From a virus: a DNA stretch of 21,480 nt. Below the pieces are notes generated by a model. The model was not told where the DNA came from, made no database searches, and was given only the letters and a program-made list of their open reading frames with translations. Within the stretch, counting starts at the first letter, position 1, and every line of letters begins with the position of its first letter. The stretch lies in the UHGV virus genome UHGV-0072741; one strand, 5' to 3'. Position numbers and translations under genes: made by a program. Shown here piece by piece: positions 6,027-21,133 of the stretch.

Positions 6027-6461
6027 TCATACCAGCGTAGCGCAGTTTTTGCGTAGCGCACTAATACTTTTTTCATCCCTTTGAATTTCGACCTCAGGAT
6101 CCATCTGAAGGCTCACACCCAGCATGCAGAGACACCCCTCAATGAATCCCTCTGCTACCTGCAACTGCTGGCGGATAAATCCTTCAGAACAGCGACGCCG
6201 CCGCCCTATCTCACGTTTGCTTAACCCGTAGACGTAGTACAGCATAATGACGTCCAGTTCCTCAGGCTTACGGACCTGCTGCAGCCGACAGACGCAAGCA
6301 TCGATAATCAGGCCATCGTCGTCACAGCAACTCAGCCTGCCAGGCGAGCTGCTGACTACCAGCCCTTTAAATCCCGCCGCTATTGGAGCCCAGCTCACTG
6401 TGGTGTTGCTATCGGCAGCCCAGCCACCCCAGCGCTCTAAAACCTGTTGAATATTACGCAT
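6027..6461 (-). CDS. Q: Late-gene antiterminator Q (phage antitermination protein Q family)
   Basis: 144 aa; MRNIQQVLERWGGWAADSN..SWAPIAAGFKGLV...CCDDDGLIID...YYVYGL matches the conserved pattern of Q-family antiterminators; located upstream of the lysis cassette. Confidence 0.85.
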   Translation of the reverse strand: MRNIQQVLERWGGWAADSNTTVSWAPIAAGFKGLVVSSSPGRLSCCDDDGLIIDACVCRLQQVRKPEELDVIMLYYVYGLSKREIGRRRRCSEGFIRQQLQVAEGFIEGCLCMLGVSLQMDPEVEIQRDEKSISALRKNCATLV

Positions 6462-6591: not shown

Positions 6592-6780
6592 TGGAACCAC
6601 CCGCCCCCACCTGGAACCACCTTTTCCTAACCTTTCCCTCAATCGACTTATATATATATATGGGGTTTCTAGTAGAAAGGCGGTTCCAGTGGTTCCAGTA
6701 GTTCCGACCCGCTTGCCACAAGGTCTGCAAGGTGGAACCACCTTCTCTTTTAGGTGGTTCCGCGTGGTTCCAGCGGTTCC
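6592..6780. repeat. Iteron array: about nine copies of GGTTCCA/TGGAACC flanking a (TA)n tract; candidate origin of replication
   Basis: TGGAACCA at 6592, 6612 and 6733; GGTTCC(A) at 6682, 6691, (6700), 6755, 6766 and 6775, at roughly one-helical-turn spacing; tatatatatata at 6649..6662. Lies between the primase stop and Q. Confidence 0.55.
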
Positions 6781-8936
6781 CAAACCTTGCATTTTTTCCC
6801 CCCAATTCGCCTTTGGGCACGCTTATACCCGCAATTTTGCAAAACATTACTAATTCGCATTTCTTCGCGTTTTCCGATGCGGTCAGGATTTAGCCCAATC
6901 GCATCACGCAAAACATCACTTGCGCGTAAAAATTCGCAATTCCGCGGAAGTTCATTAGTCATCAGGTCGGGCGTGTCGAGCCATTTCTCTACCGTTTCAA
7001 GCCAAGCATCCTTGATGGTGTACTGTTCATGGACACTCGCTGCCAGTTGTTCAGCCTCACGGAACTGGATACCCCCCAGACGCTGAAACACCTCACGAGC
7101 CTCAGCCCAAAGTAAAAGGAGATCTCTTTTTATCGCTTTCACGTCGACTTTCGACACTTCCACGGGGAGCCAGCGACGGTTACCAGTCTTGTCCGCAAGG
7201 AATTCGTCCTCATTGGTGGTACCAACGAACACCAGGCGACGAGGAAACTGGGTGGCGAACTCCCGGTATTTCGGGATCCAGTTTTCGTGAGTACGCGTCA
7301 CAAACGCTTTGATTGACTCCAGCTCTTTGGTATTAAGTCCGCGCAGTTCACCAATCTCTGCCACCAGCCGACCACGCATTTTTCGAGCGAGATCATCGTC
7401 TTTTTCGGCAAAAGAGATTTCAGTAAAAAACGCAGGATCAGGGCTCAGTGCCTCCACTCCGGAAGACTTACCGCAGCCCTGCGGACCAACGAGGATCGGC
7501 ACCATATCCGCTTTGATGCCTGGCTCCAGTACTCGCCCCGCCAACGCGGTCCACATGTACATAGACACCGCACGGGTATAAGGCGTGTCGGCGGTACCGA
7601 AGTGCGTATGGTAGAAACATTCGATGCGCGGCACGCCATCCCACTCCAGTCCGTTCAGCCAGGTGATCGCTGAATCAAATGGTTGTTCATCGGCTGCAAG
7701 TAACACCACATCGCGAATAAGTTCACGACCAACAGGTTTAAATCCCCGCTTTTCCATCGTGATGCGCAGGCGCGCATAATCCGCATCGGTGAATGCCCGC
7801 CATTGTCCGGATCCTGCAGGGGCAAACATGATTTCGTCGCGGAACTGGTCAAAGCGAATATCGATGTCCACAAAATCAGGGCGTACTACTGCTTTGGCTG
7901 CGTTGCTGATGGTTGCCTCGATACGCCCCCATTTATCACGCTCGAAAGCAGGCAGCGGTAAAGGTTCCGCCACTTCGGTGCTGGTCAGATCTTCGAAATC
8001 GTCGTTGCGGATCCCGATGGCATTAAGGAAATCTCCGTCATCACGATGCGCACAACTGGCATGCAGGCATTTAAAATGCCCCTGCTCAAAGCCCGCGGTT
8101 CCCGCAGGAAAATAAACTGTGCTTGTTGGATCGCCCCCGCTACTGTGGCCGTCTTCAAACGGACAGCGGATATATCGTTCACCATTTGCGCCATCCAGCA
8201 GCGTCCAGCCATTGGCATCAAGATATTCAGCTGTATCATCCGTCGCGCCGGGCGTGAATGCTGAACGGTCGCGCATCTTCGTGTTGCCCGCTTCGGTGGT
8301 TACCGACACAGGGAGTTGTTCAGCCAGGCGCTGCCACAGCGTTTCAAGCTGCTCACCTGTAATAGCCGGAGGTTCATCCGGCAAACCACCGTCCCATTCA
8401 ATACGCGCGCCGCTGCTGTGCGTACCGCAGGCAACGAACTGCTGCCCGTTCGCCAGCAACTCGATAATGCCCATATCCCCCGCTAGGCGATGGATACGCT
8501 TACGGAAATCACCATCAACGGCCAGCAGATACAGACACTTATTACTGTTTGCTCGCCAGCGTCGCGGCGGCAACTCACCCAGAAGTTGCACAAGCGTTTT
8601 GCGAATATCTGCCTGAATGTCTTCATCTTCGCTATCACAGTCCAGCGCCAGCCAGCCATGGCCTGTACGCACGCAGATGCCATAATCCGGTTCATTCGAC
8701 CAGCGGGCAAAATCATGCTCAGTAACAACATGCCCGGTCCATTGAGCAATACCGGTGACCTGGCGGTCCCGGTTATAGCGACTCGGCGTCTTACCCAACG
8801 CTTTCAGTTTACTATCAGGGGATATGGTCGCACTGGGGTTACATACAACTGGGAGAAGATGATCAGTTCTCCCCAATACCAGGTCGAAATGAAACCACTC
8901 ATCAGGCGTAGCTCCCCATGGTTTGCTATCGGACAT
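6750..8936 (-). CDS. Replication protein: primase (prim-pol-like N-terminus) fused to a D5/P4-alpha-like P-loop helicase
   Basis: 728 aa; Walker A GPQGCGKSS; cysteine/histidine-rich N-terminal region; follows the Cro-like gene in the early-right operon; the C-terminus overlaps the iteron array. Confidence 0.8.
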   Translation of the reverse strand: MSDSKPWGATPDEWFHFDLVLGRTDHLLPVVCNPSATISPDSKLKALGKTPSRYNRDRQVTGIAQWTGHVVTEHDFARWSNEPDYGICVRTGHGWLALDCDSEDEDIQADIRKTLVQLLGELPPRRWRANSNKCLYLLAVDGDFRKRIHRLAGDMGIIELLANGQQFVACGTHSSGARIEWDGGLPDEPPAITGEQLETLWQRLAEQLPVSVTTEAGNTKMRDRSAFTPGATDDTAEYLDANGWTLLDGANGERYIRCPFEDGHSSGGDPTSTVYFPAGTAGFEQGHFKCLHASCAHRDDGDFLNAIGIRNDDFEDLTSTEVAEPLPLPAFERDKWGRIEATISNAAKAVVRPDFVDIDIRFDQFRDEIMFAPAGSGQWRAFTDADYARLRITMEKRGFKPVGRELIRDVVLLAADEQPFDSAITWLNGLEWDGVPRIECFYHTHFGTADTPYTRAVSMYMWTALAGRVLEPGIKADMVPILVGPQGCGKSSGVEALSPDPAFFTEISFAEKDDDLARKMRGRLVAEIGELRGLNTKELESIKAFVTRTHENWIPKYREFATQFPRRLVFVGTTNEDEFLADKTGNRRWLPVEVSKVDVKAIKRDLLLLWAEAREVFQRLGGIQFREAEQLAASVHEQYTIKDAWLETVEKWLDTPDLMTNELPRNCEFLRASDVLRDAIGLNPDRIGKREEMRISNVLQNCGYKRAQRRIGGKKCKVWEPLEPRGTT

Positions 8937-8939
8937 GGG

Positions 8940-9152
8940 TTAAGCCTTTTTATCGTTTTGTGAGCCATACAACAGCCAATTAGGGTCGCAATCCAATGCT
9001 ATAGACATTTCAAGAAGATAACGTGGCCGAGCAATAACACCACTTTCAATTCTGTTTATTGCCTGCTGGCTCACTCCTGTGAGCTCAGCCAACGTAACTT
9101 GCGTCATTTTGAGTTCTTTACGTCGTTCTTTTACTCGGGTCGCTAAGGTCAT
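8940..9152 (-). CDS. Cro-like HTH transcriptional regulator (XRE family)
   Basis: Small HTH protein (MTQVTLAELTGVSQQAINRIE) divergent from the cI-like gene. Start placed at the ATG with GAGGTG upstream; the ORF-track start at 9170 has no RBS. Confidence 0.7.
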   Translation of the reverse strand: MTLATRVKERRKELKMTQVTLAELTGVSQQAINRIESGVIARPRYLLEMSIALDCDPNWLLYGSQNDKKA

Positions 9153-9272
9153 TGCTTTCACCTCATACAATTTTAGTGGTATTTAGCAACAACAAACGAG
9201 GTTTGTCAAATACAACAAAAATTGTTTTTAATGTGGGGATACACATTAATACAACCCAGAAGGACTAATCCC
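9153..9272. promoter_or_regulatory. Divergent promoter/operator region between the cro-like and cI-like genes (OR-like)
   Basis: Perfect palindromes ACAAAC-gag-GTTTGT (9192..9206) and AACAA-aaa-TTGTT (9214..9226) in a 120-bp AT-rich intergenic region between divergent HTH genes. Confidence 0.5.
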
Positions 9273-9896
9273 ATGTCTCTCGCAGCCCGTTTTAAAGCAC
9301 GTCGTTTGGAATTAGGAATGACTCAAGTGGAAGTAGCGAATTCTGCAGGGGTTAGCCAACAATCCATAGAATCCATCGAAAGTGGACGAACCAGAAAGCC
9401 ACGCAATCTTCTGGATCTGGCTAAGGCCTTGAAATGTAGCCCAGACTGGCTACTGAACGGTAAAAATATTATGCCTCTCACAGAGATAAGTACCAGACGC
9501 ATACCTATATTAAGCTACGTTCAGGCAGGAGAGCTTACAGAAGCAAGAGACATAACAGATCTGACAGGGGAATTTGAATATATTTTGGCAGACTCTGACA
9601 TTCCAGAAACATGCTTCGCATTACGTATTGATGGCGACAGCATGCAACCAGAGTTTAAAGAAGGAGACATTGTTATCATCGATCCTGATCTATGTCCTGC
9701 ACCAGGGGAGTTTGTTGTCGCCAAAAACGACGGTCACGAAGCTACATTTAAAAAATACCGTCCATTAGGAATCGGCATCGACGACTTTGAATTAATCCCC
9801 CTAAATCCTGATTACCCTATTTTTCGTAGTGCAGATATGAACTTACAGATCATAGGTGTAATGATCGAACACCGTATTTACCGCCGTAAACGTTAG
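9273..9896 (+). CDS. cI-like repressor: N-terminal HTH plus C-terminal S24 (LexA-like) self-cleaving peptidase domain
   Basis: HTH MTQVEVANSAGVSQQSIESIE; Ala-Gly cleavage site in YVQAGEL; catalytic Ser in GDSMQP and a downstream Lys. Start at the ATG preceded by AGGA; the ORF-track start at 9222 is a TTG. Confidence 0.85.
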   Translation: MSLAARFKARRLELGMTQVEVANSAGVSQQSIESIESGRTRKPRNLLDLAKALKCSPDWLLNGKNIMPLTEISTRRIPILSYVQAGELTEARDITDLTGEFEYILADSDIPETCFALRIDGDSMQPEFKEGDIVIIDPDLCPAPGEFVVAKNDGHEATFKKYRPLGIGIDDFELIPLNPDYPIFRSADMNLQIIGVMIEHRIYRRKR

Positions 9897-10000
9897 TATT
9901 CCCACCGTAAATATCGGGAGGCGTAACAGCCTCCCTTACCCCATTTGTAAAGTCTTACAAATTAAATTCACTTAAATATCAATAAAGTAGTATTCACATC

Positions 10001-10051
10001 CCACAAAATACCACATTTGTGGTTTACACAATACAACTCAAATTGTATCTT
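10001..10051 (+). promoter_or_regulatory. Candidate OL/pL-like operator-promoter downstream of the repressor gene
   Basis: Palindromes CCACAAA-N8-TTTGTGG (10001..10022) and TACAA-N6-TTGTA (10032..10047) share ACAA/TTGT half-sites with the OR palindromes; possible -35 TTTACA (10023..10028) and -10 TATCTT (10046..10051) with 17-bp spacing. Confidence 0.35.
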
Positions 10052-10206
10052 TAGCCACAAGTCGAACGGCGCGACTCTAAACCATGCGTCGGGACCGTGG
10101 CGGGACAGGATGTCGGCAATACGGGTCAGTAAGTTCCCTTTGGGGTGCGGCGAAGCACTGGGTCGAAGCCGCCGAACCACCAAAGTGAACTGAATGAGGA
10201 AACGGC

Positions 10207-10401
10207 GTGAAAACGTATAAACCGCTCAAAAGTGAATGCCCTGCTTGCCAAACACAGCTTCAGACACCAAAGCCAAAACGATACCAAATCAACGAATGTT
10301 ATGAGCACTGCCCTGGATGTGGTGCTTTCCTGCATACCATTGCAACGCACTGGCGTGTCCGCTTCAACCTTGTGGTACCACGTACGCACAATACCAACTG
10401 A
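10207..10401 (+). CDS. Small zinc-ribbon protein (CPAC...CPGC), first gene of the early-left operon
   Basis: GTG start with GAGGA 7 nt upstream; two CxxC pairs (CPACQ..., CPGCG); followed by a strong terminator. Confidence 0.4.
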   Translation: MKTYKPLKSECPACQTQLQTPKPKRYQINECYEHCPGCGAFLHTIATHWRVRFNLVVPRTHNTN

Positions 10402-10432
10402 ATCATCCATGTAATTGCTGTGTGTAGTCTTT

Positions 10433-10459
10433 GCCCGCCTCACGTGACGGGCTTTTTTA
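10433..10459 (+). terminator. Rho-independent terminator
   Basis: GC-rich hairpin gcccgcctcacgtgacgggc followed by tttttt, immediately after the zinc-ribbon ORF. Confidence 0.6.
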
Positions 10460-10484
10460 TGTCTGAAAGCACACTCGCAACAGT

Positions 10485-10667
10485 GTGCTCCCCGATATGA
10501 AAAAAGGAATACAACCGATGAAACCTGAATACCTCCATCGACTGACGGGGCGCGATGTTCTCCGTTATCGCCGTAAAAACTTCGATTTGATGACCGGTCT
10601 GGCCGTTGCCACTGCGCTCGGTCTGATCATCACTTTCATTCTCCTTGTAGCGAGGACCACAGTATGA
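10485..10667 (+). CDS. Small protein with a C-terminal transmembrane helix; start uncertain (GTG 10485, ATG 10497 or ATG 10518)
   Basis: C-terminal LAVATALGLIITFILLV hydrophobic segment; the ATG at 10518 has AGGA upstream; stop overlaps the start of the next ORF (ATGA coupling). Confidence 0.4.
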   Translation: MLPDMKKGIQPMKPEYLHRLTGRDVLRYRRKNFDLMTGLAVATALGLIITFILLVARTTV

Positions 10668-13434: not shown

Positions 13435-13485
13435 AAATATTCATCCCCCAGCTACGTGCTGGGGTATCTCATGAGGGAAAGAATA

Positions 13486-13665
13486 ATGTCACAGCCCGTA
13501 TTAACTAATCACCTTAAAACTCAAATCATCAATAACGCACTTGAGAAAGCGGGTATCCCCAAACGTAAATCAGCACTACGAGCTGCTCGTGTTGAATGGG
13601 CCGAACGTGTTCGGCTTGCAGCTATCGGGGGCGTAGAGAAAGAAGCTGAAATATTAAAAAAATAG
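13486..13665 (+). CDS. Hypothetical small protein
   Basis: ORF beginning MSQPVLTNHLK with GAGGGA upstream; the ORF track extends it to 13456. Confidence 0.4.
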   Translation: MSQPVLTNHLKTQIINNALEKAGIPKRKSALRAARVEWAERVRLAAIGGVEKEAEILKK

Positions 13666-13733: not shown

Positions 13734-14114
13734 ATGTGTCTGAATCTGGCAGGTTCTCGGGTTACCGTCTATTTCAACGGTAACTATCGAGGATATGAAT
13801 CAGGGTCACCAGACCATATTCACAAAATCGCGCCGGGGGAATTTACCCTTCTGGCAAATGACCCTCTAGTTACAGAGTTTTACGGGTTTGATGCACTTTA
13901 TGAGCAGATACAGAGCGATGAGTCAGACATTCGACAGAATGTCAGCGCTGCACTCAGTAAAGTGCGCACAGTTAAGCGCCTGCTGGAAGAGTGGCCTGAA
14001 GCTAAAGAACTTCTGCCAGCCGATGCACCATCTGCTCCGCTTCCGCCAGCTATACGACGCGAAACTCTCAACGAAATGATCGGCCTCCCTTCTGACGAAG
14101 GGGTAGATGCTTAA
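13734..14114 (+). CDS. Hypothetical protein, 126 aa
   Basis: ORF with AGGAAAGAG RBS; no recognised motif. Confidence 0.5.
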   Translation: MCLNLAGSRVTVYFNGNYRGYESGSPDHIHKIAPGEFTLLANDPLVTEFYGFDALYEQIQSDESDIRQNVSAALSKVRTVKRLLEEWPEAKELLPADAPSAPLPPAIRRETLNEMIGLPSDEGVDA

Positions 14115-14181: not shown

Positions 14182-14451
14182 TTAAAATTCATTGAATTTA
14201 AAAAGACATTTCCCTATTGGATTGCCATAGTCTCTACATACCGAAATGCTGTCCCATACAGGCTGAGCCAAACACCCAAGAAAGAACCCAATAAGCGCAA
14301 AAATTATAATTTTGGGAAGAACACGATCCTTAGGACCTTCTTCACGTTCGAGCCATGCGCCACCAGCCCGAACTATTCTCCCTAAAATATAAAGAATGGG
14401 GAAAGCAATAATACCTATCAATGAAAGTATTCCGATACCAAAGCTAAACAC
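14182..14451 (-). CDS. Small two-helix membrane protein (89 aa) on the opposite strand inside the plus-strand operon
   Basis: GTG start with a perfect AAGGAG 6 nt upstream; two hydrophobic helices (FGIGILSLIGIIAFPILYILG; IIIFALIGFFLGCLA) and a cysteine-containing C-terminus; sits in a local AT-rich island. Confidence 0.5.
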   Translation of the reverse strand: MFSFGIGILSLIGIIAFPILYILGRIVRAGGAWLEREEGPKDRVLPKIIIFALIGFFLGCLAQPVWDSISVCRDYGNPIGKCLFKFNEF

Positions 14452-17088: not shown

Positions 17089-17347
17089 ACGTGAAAGCCT
17101 TATCGAAAAGCACCTCGTCGCTGAAGTGAAAAAAGCTGGCGGAGTGGCCTTTAAGTTTGTATCTCCCGGTCACCGCTCGGTACCAGATCGCATTGTCCTG
17201 CTACCCGGTGGTCGTATCGTTTTCGTTGAATGTAAATCCCCCGGCAAACCACCACGACCTGACCAGTTGCGCACACATAAACGTCTGCGAAAGCTGGGCT
17301 TTACCGTGGTGGTACTGGATAGCAAAGATCTGGAGGAGATTATTTAA
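17078..17347 (+). CDS. VRR-NUC domain nuclease
   Basis: PDRIVLLPGGRIVFVECKSPGKPPRPDQ contains the D...E.K nuclease motif; ATG at 17078 overlaps the DUF4406 stop; the ORF track starts earlier at 17051. Confidence 0.7.
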   Translation: MAYERESLIEKHLVAEVKKAGGVAFKFVSPGHRSVPDRIVLLPGGRIVFVECKSPGKPPRPDQLRTHKRLRKLGFTVVVLDSKDLEEII

Positions 17348-18099
17348 AAAGATAGATGCCAGGTATCATCAAAACAATGCCTATAAAAGTTTATTTTTGC
17401 TTCATCTTTAACTCTTCTAAACTTCATTTTGGCATCATATGGAATCAGCACAAAATCTTTGTCGTATTCATCACAACGACCCAGAATGAAACCGTTACTA
17501 CTTTTAGAAAGTAGTATAAATGGAGCATCAGTTGTAGTTGAGAGCTCATTCTCACCGTTGTCAAATTCCGGATAAGAGACTTTATCGGATGATGAATTAA
17601 CGAATCCTGCAAGAAATGATAGCAGCAGTAGACATGTTGTCCCAATGATAGCGGAAGAAAATTTACCTATCAGTATAGATTTAAAAACATCGCTCCAAAC
17701 TACAATCATGATTATGAACACAACAACAATAATACCAAGACACACAAGGAAAATCGCTTTACCACTATAAATCAATAAGTACAGTTCTTTAGGGTTGAAA
17801 ACATTAAAGGTATAAACGCCTAAGATCCATATTGAGTAAACACCAGTAATAAGAAACCATATGAGCGACGTTCTTTTTGACAAGCCAAACCAAAAAACAC
17901 AAAGAAGCGGTAAAAATATCGTCAATATTTTAAATGAAGTTATAAGAATAATATTGATATTTATATCAATAAACTCTACAGGGTATTCAAAATAATAACT
18001 CTCCCCAAGCAAATAAGCATATGTCAAAATATAAAGCAATGCCGAAATAGTAGATATTGATGACAAATCCTTGAGGAATTCTCTAGCCGTAATTTTCAT
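17344..18099 (-). CDS. Multi-pass membrane protein of unknown function (251 aa); AT-rich moron and candidate accessory/defence gene
   Basis: About five predicted transmembrane helices followed by an ~80-aa soluble C-terminal domain; opposite strand to all neighbours; strongly AT-rich (by eye roughly 30% GC versus about 50% around it); has its own promoter. Confidence 0.65.
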   Translation of the reverse strand: MKITAREFLKDLSSISTISALLYILTYAYLLGESYYFEYPVEFIDININIILITSFKILTIFLPLLCVFWFGLSKRTSLIWFLITGVYSIWILGVYTFNVFNPKELYLLIYSGKAIFLVCLGIIVVVFIIMIVVWSDVFKSILIGKFSSAIIGTTCLLLLSFLAGFVNSSSDKVSYPEFDNGENELSTTTDAPFILLSKSSNGFILGRCDEYDKDFVLIPYDAKMKFRRVKDEAKINFYRHCFDDTWHLSF

Positions 18100-19536: not shown

Positions 19537-19733
19537 GCGAGAAACCCGACGATTTACTCACCCCGGATGAAGTATGCCAAAAGTTAGGTATTACACAGAA
19601 AACGCTATGTGAGTGGAATATTAAGCATCGTCATCGGGCTATCCTGGCACCAATTCGTTTCAGTGCAAAAGTAGTTCGTTATGAGCGCCGCAATGTCGAC
19701 GCTTTTATTCAAAAGTGTCGCAGCCGGTATTAA
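19533..19733 (+). CDS. Excisionase-like / AlpA-type small DNA-binding protein
   Basis: 66-aa basic protein (LTPDEVCQKLGITQKTLCEWN...) with a winged-helix-like pattern; ATGA overlap with the helicase stop; lies next to the integrase. Confidence 0.55.
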   Translation: MSEKPDDLLTPDEVCQKLGITQKTLCEWNIKHRHRAILAPIRFSAKVVRYERRNVDAFIQKCRSRY

Positions 19734-21133
19734 CCTCGCCGCCGTAGCAATGCCACCTGCGCAAGTATGCTCCGCTCGTGAGCCTCGAAAGCTTCGCGCT
19801 TTAACGCAATCTCTTCCTGCAAAATCTCATCAGAAAAGTCGTAATGTTCTGCCATCGGGTCATCTGACTTGCTGGAGTGGTGAAGGCAAAGGAGGCTGAT
19901 TTCCCTTCGGTCTGATCGGGAATAGCCTCTTTCCTTCATCAAGGCAATAACATTGCTCTTAAGGAATTTACGGCACATCGTATTAAATGCACCGTCTTTC
20001 CCTTTAACAGTCCCATCATGTTTTATTCCTTTTACAGCCCCATCCGGGCTGTATGTTTTCACTAGCTTATCCAGTGATCGTTTTGAAAATGGCTGCATTG
20101 GATCACGCGGCTGCAAAAATACATAATCCCTGTTGCACTCAGGAACTGAATCACGCCATGCTTTCTGCTCGTCGATAATCCGCCGGATCTCCGGCGTTAT
20201 TGGCAGGCGGAAAGCCTTTTGTGTTTTCATAGCCCCTCGCATGCCGATAACCCCTTCAGGATAAACAATTTCGCCAGTCTCCTCGTGAACGTAGTCCCAG
20301 CGCAGGTTATGGACATTAATCGGACGAACGCCGGTGATGATCATGAAGCGAACAGCATTCTTCTGGTGTACAGAGGTGCAGGCGGCAACATTGAGCCAGA
20401 GCCGGGCGATTGACTCAATATCGGTAAAAAGCCGTGTGGGGGTGGGTTTCTGTACGCGGGAGGAAACATAATCATCTGGCAGACTGGCAGCAACATTGCG
20501 ACCGTTACAAAGAGTAGGTGCGCAGAACTTCCAGAACCGACGGAGCTCGGCAAACAACTCCAGGGCGTTATTGTTCGAGCGAGTGGCGATCCACTCGTCC
20601 AGCACTTCCACCAGCCGATTGTATGTTACGTCGCTGAACACCTCACGCTCGCCGAACGTTGCTTTAATCCGGTCGATACGCACCCCGTAGGTTGTGAAAC
20701 TGTCCGGGCTCAGCTTCTGCCGGGCGACTTTGGCTTTGAGGTCATCCCGGTACATTTCCAGCGCTGCATGTACGGACTCTGCCCGCAAGCCACCGTCAGC
20801 CATACCTAGCGCTTTTTCGCGCGCCAGCTGGATAGCGAGCTCCGGCCACTCGCCGAGCTTTTTACCCTTGAGGCCCATCTTTTTTGGAAACTCGGCGTAA
20901 AATGTAACCTTACCGGCTTTGCTGAAATCGATACGGAGATAGTTCTCTTTTTCGTATTTGGAACGGCGAGCCACGCCGGAAGCAGCGAGGATGATTTTGG
21001 CGGCAGCAACACAGATTTTCATGTGTGCGCTGGTATAGGGGGGTTTACAGGCGTCCCATTTTTCAGATGCGGCTAAAACATCGTCATTATTGGGGCTATC
21101 CGGATTATGTGTTACAGTGCGCGGCATTCTCAA
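19730..21133 (-). CDS. int: Tyrosine site-specific integrase
   Basis: 467-aa ORF at the prophage end with phage-integrase-like C-terminal region; AAGGA RBS upstream of the ATG at 21133; adjacent to the host junction. Confidence 0.8.
   Translation of the reverse strand: MRMPRTVTHNPDSPNNDDVLAASEKWDACKPPYTSAHMKICVAAAKIILAASGVARRSKYEKENYLRIDFSKAGKVTFYAEFPKKMGLKGKKLGEWPELAIQLAREKALGMADGGLRAESVHAALEMYRDDLKAKVARQKLSPDSFTTYGVRIDRIKATFGEREVFSDVTYNRLVEVLDEWIATRSNNNALELFAELRRFWKFCAPTLCNGRNVAASLPDDYVSSRVQKPTPTRLFTDIESIARLWLNVAACTSVHQKNAVRFMIITGVRPINVHNLRWDYVHEETGEIVYPEGVIGMRGAMKTQKAFRLPITPEIRRIIDEQKAWRDSVPECNRDYVFLQPRDPMQPFSKRSLDKLVKTYSPDGAVKGIKHDGTVKGKDGAFNTMCRKFLKSNVIALMKERGYSRSDRREISLLCLHHSSKSDDPMAEHYDFSDEILQEEIALKREAFEAHERSILAQVALLRRRG

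What the first reader, a model, noticed from the sequence alone, without database searches (positions are those of the whole stretch)
10041..10460. GC-rich ~165-nt leader and zinc-ribbon first gene followed by a strong terminator at the N/tL1-equivalent position
No N-like arginine-rich antiterminator is evident, yet the early-left operon begins with a long GC-rich untranslated leader (10041..10206) containing potential stem-loops, then a 64-aa CxxC...CxxC protein and a strong intrinsic terminator. Reaching the downstream replication genes would need antitermination, either by this small protein or by a cis-acting put-like RNA in the leader as in HK022. A loosely boxA-like sequence (cgcgactctaaa) occurs in the leader.
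Basis: inference. Interest (0 to 1): 0.45.

Follow-up and report, generated by a model that had tools for sequence, protein, structure and literature searches.

The report
Put antiterminator RNA, RprA-like terminator
The GC-rich leader is a phage HK022-type "put" RNA, a transcript that by itself makes RNA polymerase ignore terminators (a known device, here unannotated), and the terminator it has to cross turns out to be a near-exact copy of the 3' end of the host small RNA RprA, which I did not find described.

Summary
A repressor-controlled promoter (10023-10051) is followed by a 60% GC leader, a 64-codon CxxC...CxxC ORF (10207-10401) and a hairpin plus T-run (10433-10460).

The leader is not anonymous. 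Positions 10060-10127 are a full-length homologue of HK022 putL. A covariance model built without the window's clade scores it 81 bits (E 7e-17). Every difference from HK022 is compensatory or sits at an inert or bulged position of the cryo-EM structure, and all residues essential by mutagenesis are kept. The "boxA-like" string is put residues 13-24.

The zinc-ribbon ORF is a weakly constrained E. coli ORFan that also occurs behind a non-put leader, so it is cargo, not the antiterminator.

In 75 related phage contigs sharing the downstream operon, 27 carry put, 48 carry a boxA-type leader, none both and none neither. This supports the idea that the terminator must be bypassed.

The unexpected part is the terminator module. 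Positions 10413-10460 match the last ~47 nt of host sRNA RprA (its processed form), with 24 of 24 identical bases before the stem. This block is 99% conserved and sits behind CI-like repressor genes in 93 of 98 phage contigs.

Put is a new member of a known kind. The RprA-like module is the open lead.

The parts
9274..9896 (+). CI-like repressor gene (HTH plus S24 peptidase), upstream context; the cro-like gene 8940-9170 lies divergently on the - strand
   Evidence: Pfam HTH_3 and Peptidase_S24; RefSeq annotates the orthologue as 'LexA family protein'.
9916..9935 (+). Hairpin GGGAGGC/GCCUCCC after the repressor gene, a likely end of the maintenance transcript
   Evidence: dG -16.1 kcal/mol, z -4.1. 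It lacks a clean T-run, so its efficiency is unknown.
10023..10051 (+). Early-left promoter (PL equivalent): -35 TTTACA, 17-nt spacer, -10 TATCTT
   Evidence: Consensus scan. The -10 aligns with the annotated HK022 PL -10 in alignment A1. By the same register the inferred start is near 10058.
10031..10048 (.). Operator-like palindrome ATACAA-N6-TTGTAT between -35 and -10, also present at 9165-9182 and 9211-9228 in the cro/cI intergenic region
   Evidence: Repeat families D1, D7 and I4. The assignment as an operator is inferred.
10060..10127 (+). putL-type antiterminator RNA, equivalent to HK022 putL residues A3-C72. Helix S1 is 10060-64 with 10072-76. Helix S2 is 10067-71 with 10087-91. The -10-like pause element AACCAT is 10080-85. 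G35 is 10092. Stem II is 10093-10127.
   Evidence: blastn to annotated putL of HK022, HK75 and O276 and to putL-like of HK639. CM R2 built without this clade gives 81 bits, E 7e-17, full length. Cryo-EM pair list: 94% of cells paired and 9 pairs with double changes across 33 sequences.
10132..10191 (+). Third stem-loop directly after put stem II, ending 5 nt before the Shine-Dalgarno sequence
   Evidence: dG -27.7, z -4.2. Some covariation among relatives. A stable hairpin at this position follows putL but not putR across 75 distinct flanks. Its role is unknown.
10207..10401 (+). 64-codon CxxC...CxxC ORF (GTG start), variable cargo gene
   Evidence: Only two homologue clusters, both E. coli. 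No PHROG. Not called by PGAP in a 97%-identical prophage. Absent or replaced in put-bearing relatives. Present behind a boxA-type leader in L354.
10413..10460 (+). RprA 3'-end-like module: single-stranded AAUUGCUGUGUGUAGUCUUU (10413-10432), terminator stem-loop (10433-10452) and U-run (10453-10458). This is the first terminator of the early-left operon.
   Evidence: Rfam RF00034 at 50.5 bits, E 7e-6 to 2e-5, below the gathering score of 70. 24 of 24 bases identical to K-12 rprA before the stem, with a compensatory A-U to G-C change in the stem. 98.9% per-position conservation of the 22-mer 10415-10436 in 56 distinct protein-anchored relatives.
10468..10489 (+). Second hairpin AGCACACU/AGUGUGCU after the terminator, without a U-run
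   Evidence: Read from the sequence. The stem varies with paired changes in relatives (alignment). Its role is unknown.
10518..10667 (+). 49-aa small membrane protein (phrog_11981), first gene of the conserved downstream block. It is followed by phrog_6784, the DUF2800 nuclease, an Enc34-type SSB, Nmad5, a family A DNA polymerase and an SNF2 helicase.
   Evidence: PHROG and Pfam scans. Used as the anchor for the unbiased sample of relatives.

Best explanation
The window is the immunity and early region of an E. coli temperate phage. When the CI-like repressor leaves the operators, RNA polymerase starts at PL near 10058. The first ~70 nt it makes (10060-10127) fold co-transcriptionally into a put RNA. 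Stem I is a pseudoknot-like pair of helices with a triplex strand, and stem II completes the V shape. [quoted passage not shown] It should stay bound and make that polymerase resistant to pausing and to intrinsic and Rho-dependent terminators, with no phage protein needed. The modified polymerase then reads through the hairpin plus U-run at 10433-10460 into the replication and recombination operon. Transcripts entering from upstream (the cI message) carry no put and stop there. The zinc-ribbon ORF is a mosaic cargo gene between the two signals. Shown here: homology, conservation of the solved fold and of the essential residues, position relative to the promoter, and the put-or-boxA rule in relatives. 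Inferred: the antitermination activity itself and the transcription start point.
For: Sequence: blastn hits to annotated putL of HK022, HK75, O276 and HK639 (annotations). Alignment A1 shows the invariant motifs CGAACGGCxCG, AGGAxG and GxCAAT. Structure: mapped on the cryo-EM numbering of PMC9378689, the window differs from HK022 only by A5U/U17A, G38C/C70G, C41U/G66A, U49A/A58U, a paired deletion of residues 48 and 57, U20C (a position where mutations were inert) and U68G (a bulged base). A8, A9, U28, G35, G43, G45, A63, A64 and U65 and the -10-like AACCAU are kept. Family: 33 distinct putL-type sequences from IMG/VR fit the cryo-EM pair list (94% paired, 9 pairs with double changes, covariation 0.222 against 0.066 in shuffles, slid controls 26-46% paired). 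Model R2, built without the window's clade, scores 81 bits at E 7e-17. Model R1 also finds HK022 putR (42.8 bits) as a sensitivity control. Context: the promoter and operator sit immediately upstream in HK022 register and a terminator lies 305 nt downstream. Comparative: of 75 protein-anchored relatives with at least 1.4 kb upstream, 27 have put, 48 have a GCTCTTTAACAA leader, 0 have both and 0 have neither.
Against: No experiment on this element exists. Stem II is one base pair shorter at its apex, and the bulged base is G rather than U. HK022 deletion of U68 loses antitermination, and the effect of base identity at that position is unknown. The terminator is only moderately stable (-9.8 kcal/mol), and no further intrinsic terminator was detected on the + strand of the operon, so the need for processive antitermination rests on comparative evidence. 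Unlike HK022 there is no putR. The loci were collected with a pattern that fixes the invariant motifs, so those columns cannot vary by construction; the pairs tested lie mostly outside them.
Confidence: 0.85

Rival explanations
1. The 64-aa zinc-ribbon protein is the antiterminator, or an essential cofactor of the leader RNA. It would be made from the promoter-proximal gene like lambda N and would act on polymerase at the terminator just downstream.
For: It occupies the N-equivalent position as the first ORF before the first terminator. Four Cys residues are kept in all seven known copies. There are weak zinc-ribbon Pfam hits.
Against: Only two homologue clusters exist, both E. coli, and there is no PHROG. 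Put-bearing relatives with the same terminator carry other first genes (L052, L006, L007, L025 and others). The 88% homologue in L354 sits behind a boxA-type leader with no put. There are 8 non-synonymous against 4 synonymous codon differences, including one inside CPGC. PGAP does not call it. HK022 put needs no phage protein (PMC9378689 introduction).
Confidence: 0.03
2. The leader is an N/nut- or rrn-type site. The boxA-like string would recruit NusB/NusE and an unidentified phage factor.
For: cgcgactctaaa loosely resembles boxA. Sibling phages do carry a perfect rrn-type boxA, GCTCTTTAACAA, at the same position.
Against: The string is put residues 13-24, paired in helix S1 and the triplex of the solved structure. 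The true boxA motif (at most 1 mismatch) is never found together with put in 75 relatives. No arginine-rich N-like protein was found by Pfam or PHROG. The only R-rich N-terminus (the 49-aa membrane protein at 10518) is encoded after the terminator.
Confidence: 0.02
3. For the terminator part: the RprA resemblance is incidental. A phage once captured the 3' end of host rprA by recombination, and the block now serves only as an ordinary intrinsic terminator and insulator between the immunity region and the replication genes.
For: The block has everything a terminator needs and sits where lambdoid phages place tL1. The RprA 5' stem-loop and rpoS-pairing region are absent. The Rfam score is below gathering (50.5 against 70). 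No self-target was found in the window.
Against: A terminator does not need a fixed sequence upstream of its stem. Yet the 18 single-stranded bases 10415-10432 are 98.6% conserved per position in 56 distinct protein-anchored relatives. That compares with 75% for the loop, 70% for the next hairpin and 80% for third codon positions of the adjacent gene. The block recurs in at least 76 different flank contexts and in the 3' UTR of thymidylate synthase in a lytic Erwinia schitovirus. The matching part of RprA (the last 47 nt, RprAproc) is itself an active regulator (PMC9262595).
Confidence: 0.55
4. The put homologue is a decayed relic in a defective prophage and no longer acts.
For: One base pair is missing in apical stem II and U68 is G. 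The Nmad5 gene downstream is split, hinting at some decay in this copy.
Against: Identical or near-identical put copies occur in 14 loci or contigs of this type and in 36 complete E. coli genomes at about 97%. All changes preserve pairing. The window also keeps intact terminase, portal, Q, holin, polymerase and integrase ORFs.
Confidence: 0.05

Closest known systems
HK022 putL (polymerase-utilisation RNA; King et al. 1996; cryo-EM 7XUE, Hwang et al. 2022, PMC9378689)
   Same: About 80% sequence identity over 70 nt. Same helices and same essential residues (A8/A9, U28, G35, G45, A63/A64). Same -10-like pause element. Same placement about 2 nt after the PL start, downstream of cI and upstream of a terminator.
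   Different: Apical stem II is one base pair shorter and the bulged U68 is G. Four stem pairs are swapped by compensatory changes. There is no putR partner and no Nun gene. The operon it serves is a PolA/DUF2800/SNF2 replication module rather than lambda-like recombination genes.
HK639 putL-like RNA (annotated in HM208537; King et al. 2011, J Bacteriol 193:5784, not readable here)
   Same: A single put at PL with no putR in the stretch examined. The GenBank feature spans 126 nt, that is put plus a third hairpin up to the first gene, as in this window.
   Different: Lower stem II has a different sequence and bulge register, and the third hairpin has a different sequence. What the paper says about the third hairpin could not be checked.
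Lambda N / nutL / tL1
   Same: Same logic and layout: a promoter-proximal signal in the PL transcript, a first gene, then the first terminator, whose bypass opens the early-left operon.
   Different: No N protein, no boxB, no real boxA. The RNA acts alone on beta' (by homology with HK022). Sibling phages of this window do use a boxA-type leader instead.
RprA sRNA of Enterobacteriaceae (Rfam RF00034), specifically its processed 3' form RprAproc
   Same: Window 10413-10460 matches the last ~47 nt: AAUUGCUGUGUGUAGUCUUUGCCC is identical, followed by a terminator stem of the same design and a U-run.
   Different: It lacks the 5' stem-loop, the rpoS-pairing region and an RcsB-type promoter. It lies inside a phage operon behind a coding ORF. 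It scores below the Rfam gathering threshold.
DicF (Qin prophage) and StxS (Stx phages), recalled from memory and not checked here
   Same: Hfq-dependent sRNAs cut or terminated out of repressor-controlled or antiterminated phage operon transcripts. They set a precedent for an sRNA at this kind of position.
   Different: No sequence similarity. Neither copies a core host sRNA.

Membership tests
put antiterminator RNA (HK022 type) | Significant match of sequence plus structure to known put RNAs | tested here: met
   CM R2, built from 17 HK022/HK639-type sequences and excluding the window's clade, gives 81 bits at E 7e-17 with model positions 1-71 of 71. blastn E 1e-9 to annotated putL.
put antiterminator RNA (HK022 type) | The solved fold: helix 3-7/15-19, helix 10-14/30-34, stem II 36-72 with internal non-canonical pairs | tested here: met
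   All pairs can form in the window. Across 33 sequences 94% of cells are paired and 9 pairs have changes on both sides, against 26-46% paired in the slid controls.
put antiterminator RNA (HK022 type) | Residues essential by mutagenesis or contacting the beta' zinc-binding domain (A3-G7 strand, A9, U28, G35, G45, A64) | tested here: met
   All are identical in the window except position 5, which changes together with its partner 17.
put antiterminator RNA (HK022 type) | putL-type placement: immediately after the early-left promoter, with the internal -10-like pause element | tested here: met
   The -10 at 10046-51 aligns with the HK022 PL -10. AACCAT lies at 10080-85.
put antiterminator RNA (HK022 type) | Acts in cis on the transcribing polymerase without a phage protein, and is blocked by beta' zinc-binding-domain mutations | not testable with these tools
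   This needs reporter fusions and rpoC mutants.
RprA sRNA (RF00034) | Score at or above the Rfam gathering threshold | tested here: not met
   50.5 bits against 70. L245 scores 50.2 and L247 scores 43.2.
RprA sRNA (RF00034) | 5' stem-loop and central rpoS/csgD-pairing region | tested here: not met
   The alignment to K-12 rprA shows no meaningful similarity upstream of about 10398. None of 124 phage copies has the RprA 5' half.
RprA sRNA (RF00034) | 3' 47-nt processed form (conserved single strand plus terminator) | tested here: met
   24 of 24 identical bases plus a stem with a compensatory change. RprAproc is defined in PMC9262595.
Lambda-type N/nut antitermination | boxA plus boxB in the leader and an arginine-rich N protein | tested here: not met
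   No boxA (at most 1 mismatch to GCTCTTTAACAA) occurs with put in any relative. No N-like family was found in the Pfam or PHROG scans.

The most novel reading that the evidence does not exclude
The first terminator of the early-left operon may be a phage-borne mimic of processed RprA. Polymerases that stop at 10458 would yield a transcript whose last ~47 nt, once freed by RNase E at the RprA-like site, is an Hfq-type sRNA carrying the most conserved RprA segment. Put (or, in sibling phages, the boxA leader) would then set the ratio between sRNA output and readthrough into the replication genes. The same portable module is kept behind CI-like repressor genes in more than 90 prophage contigs of many immunity types and in a 3' UTR of a lytic Erwinia phage. 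This suggests that phages commonly tap the Rcs/Cpx-RprA envelope-stress circuit. It also raises the converse possibility that the 3' half of host rprA and these phage terminators share an origin.
Probability: 0.35. Interest if true: 0.75.

Novelty: new member of a known kind. Interest (0 to 1): 0.5.

Why it matters
Put RNAs are the textbook example of an RNA that reprograms RNA polymerase on its own, but only a handful are annotated. Rfam 15 has no family that matches one, and RefSeq leaves this 630-bp stretch blank. This work shows three things. The family is large, with at least 120 IMG/VR contigs and 33 distinct putL sequences. The cryo-EM fold of HK022 putL is borne out by covariation, including the 5' helix that older models lacked. 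Put is also interchangeable with a boxA-type leader in front of one conserved terminator and operon, which gives a natural swap experiment. Separately, a near-invariant copy of the active 3' fragment of a core stress sRNA sits at the PL-proximal terminator of many prophages. If that copy is functional, it would be a new route by which phages manipulate host post-transcriptional networks, and it can be tested with existing Hfq-CLIP, RIL-seq and Term-seq data from lysogens.

Tried and rejected
(1) The Rfam gathering scan of the whole window found nothing. The E-value scan found nothing over put.
(2) MFE folding of the leader or of put alone is uninformative (z -0.9 and +0.6), because the fold is pseudoknotted and protein-bound.
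(3) The search for a second put (putR) with filters off gave a next best hit of 9.8-10.1 bits at E about 0.6, so there is none.
(5) King et al. 2011 (PMC3187212) and Papenfort et al. 2015 (PMC4553797) are not held. Full-text searches for put-like prophage elements or 'RprA-like' found nothing relevant.
(6) I considered whether the RprA-like block could be attP, that is a duplicated 3' end of an integration target. I rejected this because it lies 9 kb from the integrase (19730-21133), inside the early operon.
(7) tRNA-like sequences upstream of some phage copies were not called by ARAGORN.
(8) I looked for complementarity of the RprA-like seed to phage start regions or elsewhere in the window. 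There is only its own antisense strand and unremarkable duplex energies, the best being -19 kcal/mol at the start of the 300-aa gene.
(9) dN/dS of the zinc-ribbon ORF rests on only 12 variable codons, so it is indicative and not decisive.

Full report
CONTEXT. The window is the central part of an E. coli temperate phage.
- On the - strand lie a cro-like HTH gene (8940-9170), a VapE-type primase/helicase (6750-8936), a Q antiterminator (6027-6461), a holin, small and large terminase subunits and a portal gene.
- On the + strand lie a CI-like HTH-S24 repressor (9274-9896), the region of the finding, and then a small membrane protein, phrog_6784, a DUF2800 nuclease, an Enc34-type SSB, Nmad5, a family A DNA polymerase, an SNF2 helicase, an excisionase-like gene and an integrase.
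- The 9900-10520 stretch occurs in 151 of 5,426 complete E. coli genomes, always chromosomal. In 36 of them it is full length at about 97% identity.
- The nearest sequenced phages (vB_EcoM-606R2 and its relatives) share 58% of the window at 98% identity but have a different immunity region.

OBSERVATION. All three features exist.
- The leader is 57-60% GC, against 35% just upstream.
- The ORF 10207-10401 has a GTG start, a GAGGAA Shine-Dalgarno sequence and two CxxC pairs.
- The terminator is GCCCG-N10-CGGGC followed by TTTTTTAT, with dG -9.8 kcal/mol. That is moderate rather than strong, and the consensus scanner missed it because of its long loop.
- A sigma-70-like promoter (TTTACA-17-TATCTT, 10023-10051) overlaps an operator-like palindrome ATACAA-N6-TTGTAT that recurs twice in the cro/cI intergenic region. 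The leader is therefore the start of a repressor-controlled early-left transcript.

WHAT THE LEADER IS.
- A sensitive blastn search of 9900-10520 against phage records hit the annotated putL of HK022, HK75 and O276, the 'putL-like antiterminator RNA' of HK639, and unannotated sites in Erwinia phiEt88 and Salmonella phages (annotations).
- The alignment shows invariant blocks CGAACGGCxCG, AGGAxG and GxCAAT. It also shows that the window's -10 hexamer aligns with the HK022 PL -10, which puts the start near 10058, two bases before put residue A3 at 10060.
- I mapped the window on the cryo-EM structure of putL bound to the elongation complex (Hwang et al. 2022, PMC9378689). The structure has helix A3-G7/C15-U19, helix C10-G14/C30-G34, the U21-C25 triplex strand, the bulged C26-G29 with U28 inserted in a beta' pocket, the A9-G35 platform, and stem II G36-C72 with non-canonical G42-U65, G43-A64 and C44-A63.
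- The window differs from HK022 by four compensatory pair swaps: A5U/U17A, G38C/C70G, C41U/G66A and U49A/A58U.
- It also has a joint deletion of the paired residues 48 and 57, U20C (the one position where all tested mutations were inert) and U68G (a bulged base).
- Every residue whose mutation inactivated put (3-7 as a strand, U28, G35, G45, A64; also A9) is preserved. So is the -10-like AACCAU that the authors link to sigma-dependent pausing in putL.

FAMILY EVIDENCE.
- A pattern made from the invariant blocks occurs once in the window and never in 100 shuffles. It occurs in at least 120 IMG/VR contigs.
- After removing obvious chance hits, 33 distinct putL-type sequences were aligned.
- I counted the cryo-EM pair list on that alignment, written with the two stem I helices as crossing brackets. 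94% of cells are standard pairs, 9 of 23 pairs show changes on both sides, and the covariation score is 0.222 against 0.066 in shuffles (0 of 500 reach it). Versions slid by one to three columns give 26-46% paired.
- One caveat applies. The collecting pattern fixes some columns, but the covarying pairs lie outside them.
- A covariance model from all 33 sequences finds HK022 putR at 42.8 bits, which is a sensitivity control, and nothing else in the window above 9.8 bits. There is therefore a single put, as in HK639.
- A second model, built only from HK022/HK639-type sequences and excluding the window's clade, still scores the window at 81 bits, E 7e-17, end to end.
- Rfam 15 reports no family over put, even at E up to 10, and RefSeq annotates nothing between the repressor gene and the small membrane protein.

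THE ZINC-RIBBON ORF.
- It has only two homologue clusters among 5.8 billion proteins, both from E. coli, and no PHROG.
- In put-bearing relatives the segment between hairpin 3 and the terminator is replaced by unrelated small genes, while put and the terminator block stay.
- Its most divergent copy (88%, L354) sits behind a boxA-type leader without put. It differs at 8 non-synonymous and 4 synonymous codons, including one inside CPGC.
- It may well be translated, but it is not tied to put, and HK022 put needs no phage protein. I treat it as mosaic cargo.

DOES THE TERMINATOR NEED BYPASSING?
- I collected relatives through the protein encoded just after the terminator (49 aa, phrog_11981, 69-100% identity). 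This choice is blind to the leader.
- Of 75 loci with at least 1.4 kb upstream, 27 contain put and 48 contain GCTCTTTAACAA (the rrn-type boxA, at most 1 mismatch). None contains both and none contains neither.
- Two alternative promoter-proximal antitermination-type signals, always one of them, in front of one conserved terminator and operon is what is expected if polymerase must be modified to pass. This is comparative support, not proof.
- No further intrinsic terminator was seen on the + strand of the operon. Rho-dependent sites cannot be predicted here.

THE TERMINATOR IS AN RprA 3' MODULE.
- An E-value-mode Rfam scan of the region gave RF00034 (RprA) at 10353-10462, at 50.5 bits and E 7e-6 to 2e-5, below the gathering score of 70.
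- Only the 3' part aligns well. Against K-12 rprA, AATTGCTGTGTGTAGTCTTTGCCC is 24 of 24 identical. The terminator stem differs by a compensatory A-U to G-C change and the U-run follows. The RprA 5' stem-loop and rpoS-pairing region are absent.
- This matching part is what the literature calls processed RprA, the last 47 nt. It co-exists with full-length RprA and is sufficient for some regulation (PMC9262595). RNase E releases it (PMC6202311).
- The exact 22-mer occurs in at least 120 IMG/VR contigs in 76 distinct flank contexts, none with the RprA 5' half.
- Of 98 copies with enough upstream sequence, 93 lie downstream of a same-strand CI-like HTH-S24 gene, at a median of 563 nt from its stop. 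These include lineages with quite different leaders, such as L247.
- In the protein-anchored sample, 76 of 78 loci have the 22-mer with at most 2 edits. Its per-position conservation is 98.9%.
- That compares with 75% for the terminator loop, 70% for the next hairpin, 43% for the sequence upstream, and 90%, 97% and 80% for codon positions 1, 2 and 3 of the adjacent gene.
- A lytic Erwinia schitovirus, Ea9-2, carries the same module directly after its thymidylate synthase gene.
- Put and this module are independent. Only the window-type put clade (16 of 91 putL loci) has it downstream.
- A terminator does not need a fixed single-stranded sequence in front of its stem, so something beyond termination is probably selected. 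I could not show what. No phage self-target stood out, and I found no paper describing phage copies.

THIRD HAIRPIN.
- Positions 10132-10191 form a long imperfect hairpin (dG -27.7, z -4.2) that ends 5 nt before the Shine-Dalgarno sequence.
- Relatives keep its base with some compensatory changes while the apex varies by insertions and deletions.
- Across 75 distinct putL flanks, the 70 nt after stem II have a median dG of -18.2 and z of -2.4, with pairing starting about 6 nt after put. For 14 putR flanks the values are -4.0 and +0.3.
- The HK639 GenBank feature (126 nt) includes this hairpin. Its role is unknown; candidates are insulation of put folding, a processing site, or mRNA stability.

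MECHANISM AND CONFIDENCE. Identity as a put RNA is shown. That it acts as in HK022 (binding the beta' zinc-binding domain, persistent modification, suppression of the 10433-10460 terminator and of any Rho-dependent sites beyond) is inferred from conservation of the fold and contact residues and from the put-or-boxA rule; I put it at about 0.85. That the RprA-like block is more than a terminator I put at about 0.35-0.45.

NOVELTY. The put element is a new, unannotated member of a known family. The association of PL-proximal terminators with the 3' end of RprA appears undescribed in the literature I could search, and it is the part worth following up.

Noticed in passing
L245:2594-2790 (phage vB_EcoM-606R2) and L354:1180-1480: Sibling phages with the same terminator and replication operon have no put. 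Instead they carry a perfect rrn-type boxA (GCTCTTTAACAA) followed by a ~200-nt GC-rich leader, with no obvious N gene. It matches no Rfam family and could be another RNA-based or Nus-dependent antitermination leader.
   Followed up: partly
window 10132-10191; 75 putL flanks in L001-L123: A stable third hairpin follows putL, but not putR, in almost every lineage, with unrelated sequences. In L354 the recombination junction between the leader types falls inside this hairpin.
   Followed up: partly
L437:398-447 (Erwinia phage Ea9-2; also Frozen, Rexella, Gutmeister, Tellus): Lytic N4-like Erwinia phages carry the RprA 3' module (AAATTGCTGTGTGTAGTCTTTGCCC, stem, then T-run) immediately after thymidylate synthase. 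It overlaps an annotated 'hypothetical protein'.
   Followed up: partly
L247:4870-4905 (- strand) and L245:3462-3497: A shared motif GAACCACC(G/T)CGCCTGATGTGGTTAAAAGCAGGC occurs in the PL leaders of otherwise different phages, upstream of the RprA-like block. Its function is unknown.
   Followed up: no
window 10468-10489: A second hairpin (AGCACACU/AGUGUGCU) lies right after the terminator, with paired substitutions in relatives and no U-run.
   Followed up: no
window 13456-13665 and 13734-14114: The Nmad5 nucleotide-modification gene is split into two ORFs, covering Pfam profile positions 3-55 and 86-206. A related E. coli prophage (L244, NZ_AP042574.1) annotates a 639-nt Nmad5-family gene at the corresponding position. 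This is likely a disrupted gene in this copy.
   Followed up: no
window 17344-18099 (- strand), promoter-like site 18158-18131: A 251-aa ORF with no Pfam or PHROG match lies antisense inside the early-left operon, behind the best promoter match in the window (TTGAAA-16-TATAAT, 11 of 12). It looks like a moron expressed from the prophage.
   Followed up: no
window 14182-14451 (- strand): An 89-aa ORF on the opposite strand sits in the 394-nt AT-rich gap between Nmad5 and the DNA polymerase gene. It is another possible moron.
   Followed up: no
L084:3412-3455: A put variant lacks residues ~17-34 (the 3' strand of helix S1, the triplex strand and the 3' strand of S2) but has an intact stem II. 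It may be a deletion derivative or a minimal form.
   Followed up: no
HK022 putL residues 14-24, window 10071-10081: The put segment GCGUCUUUAAA (HK022) or GCGACUCUAAA (window) resembles rrn boxA UGCUCUUUAACAA. This may be coincidence or a hint of common ancestry between put and boxA leaders, which are interchangeable at this locus.
   Followed up: no
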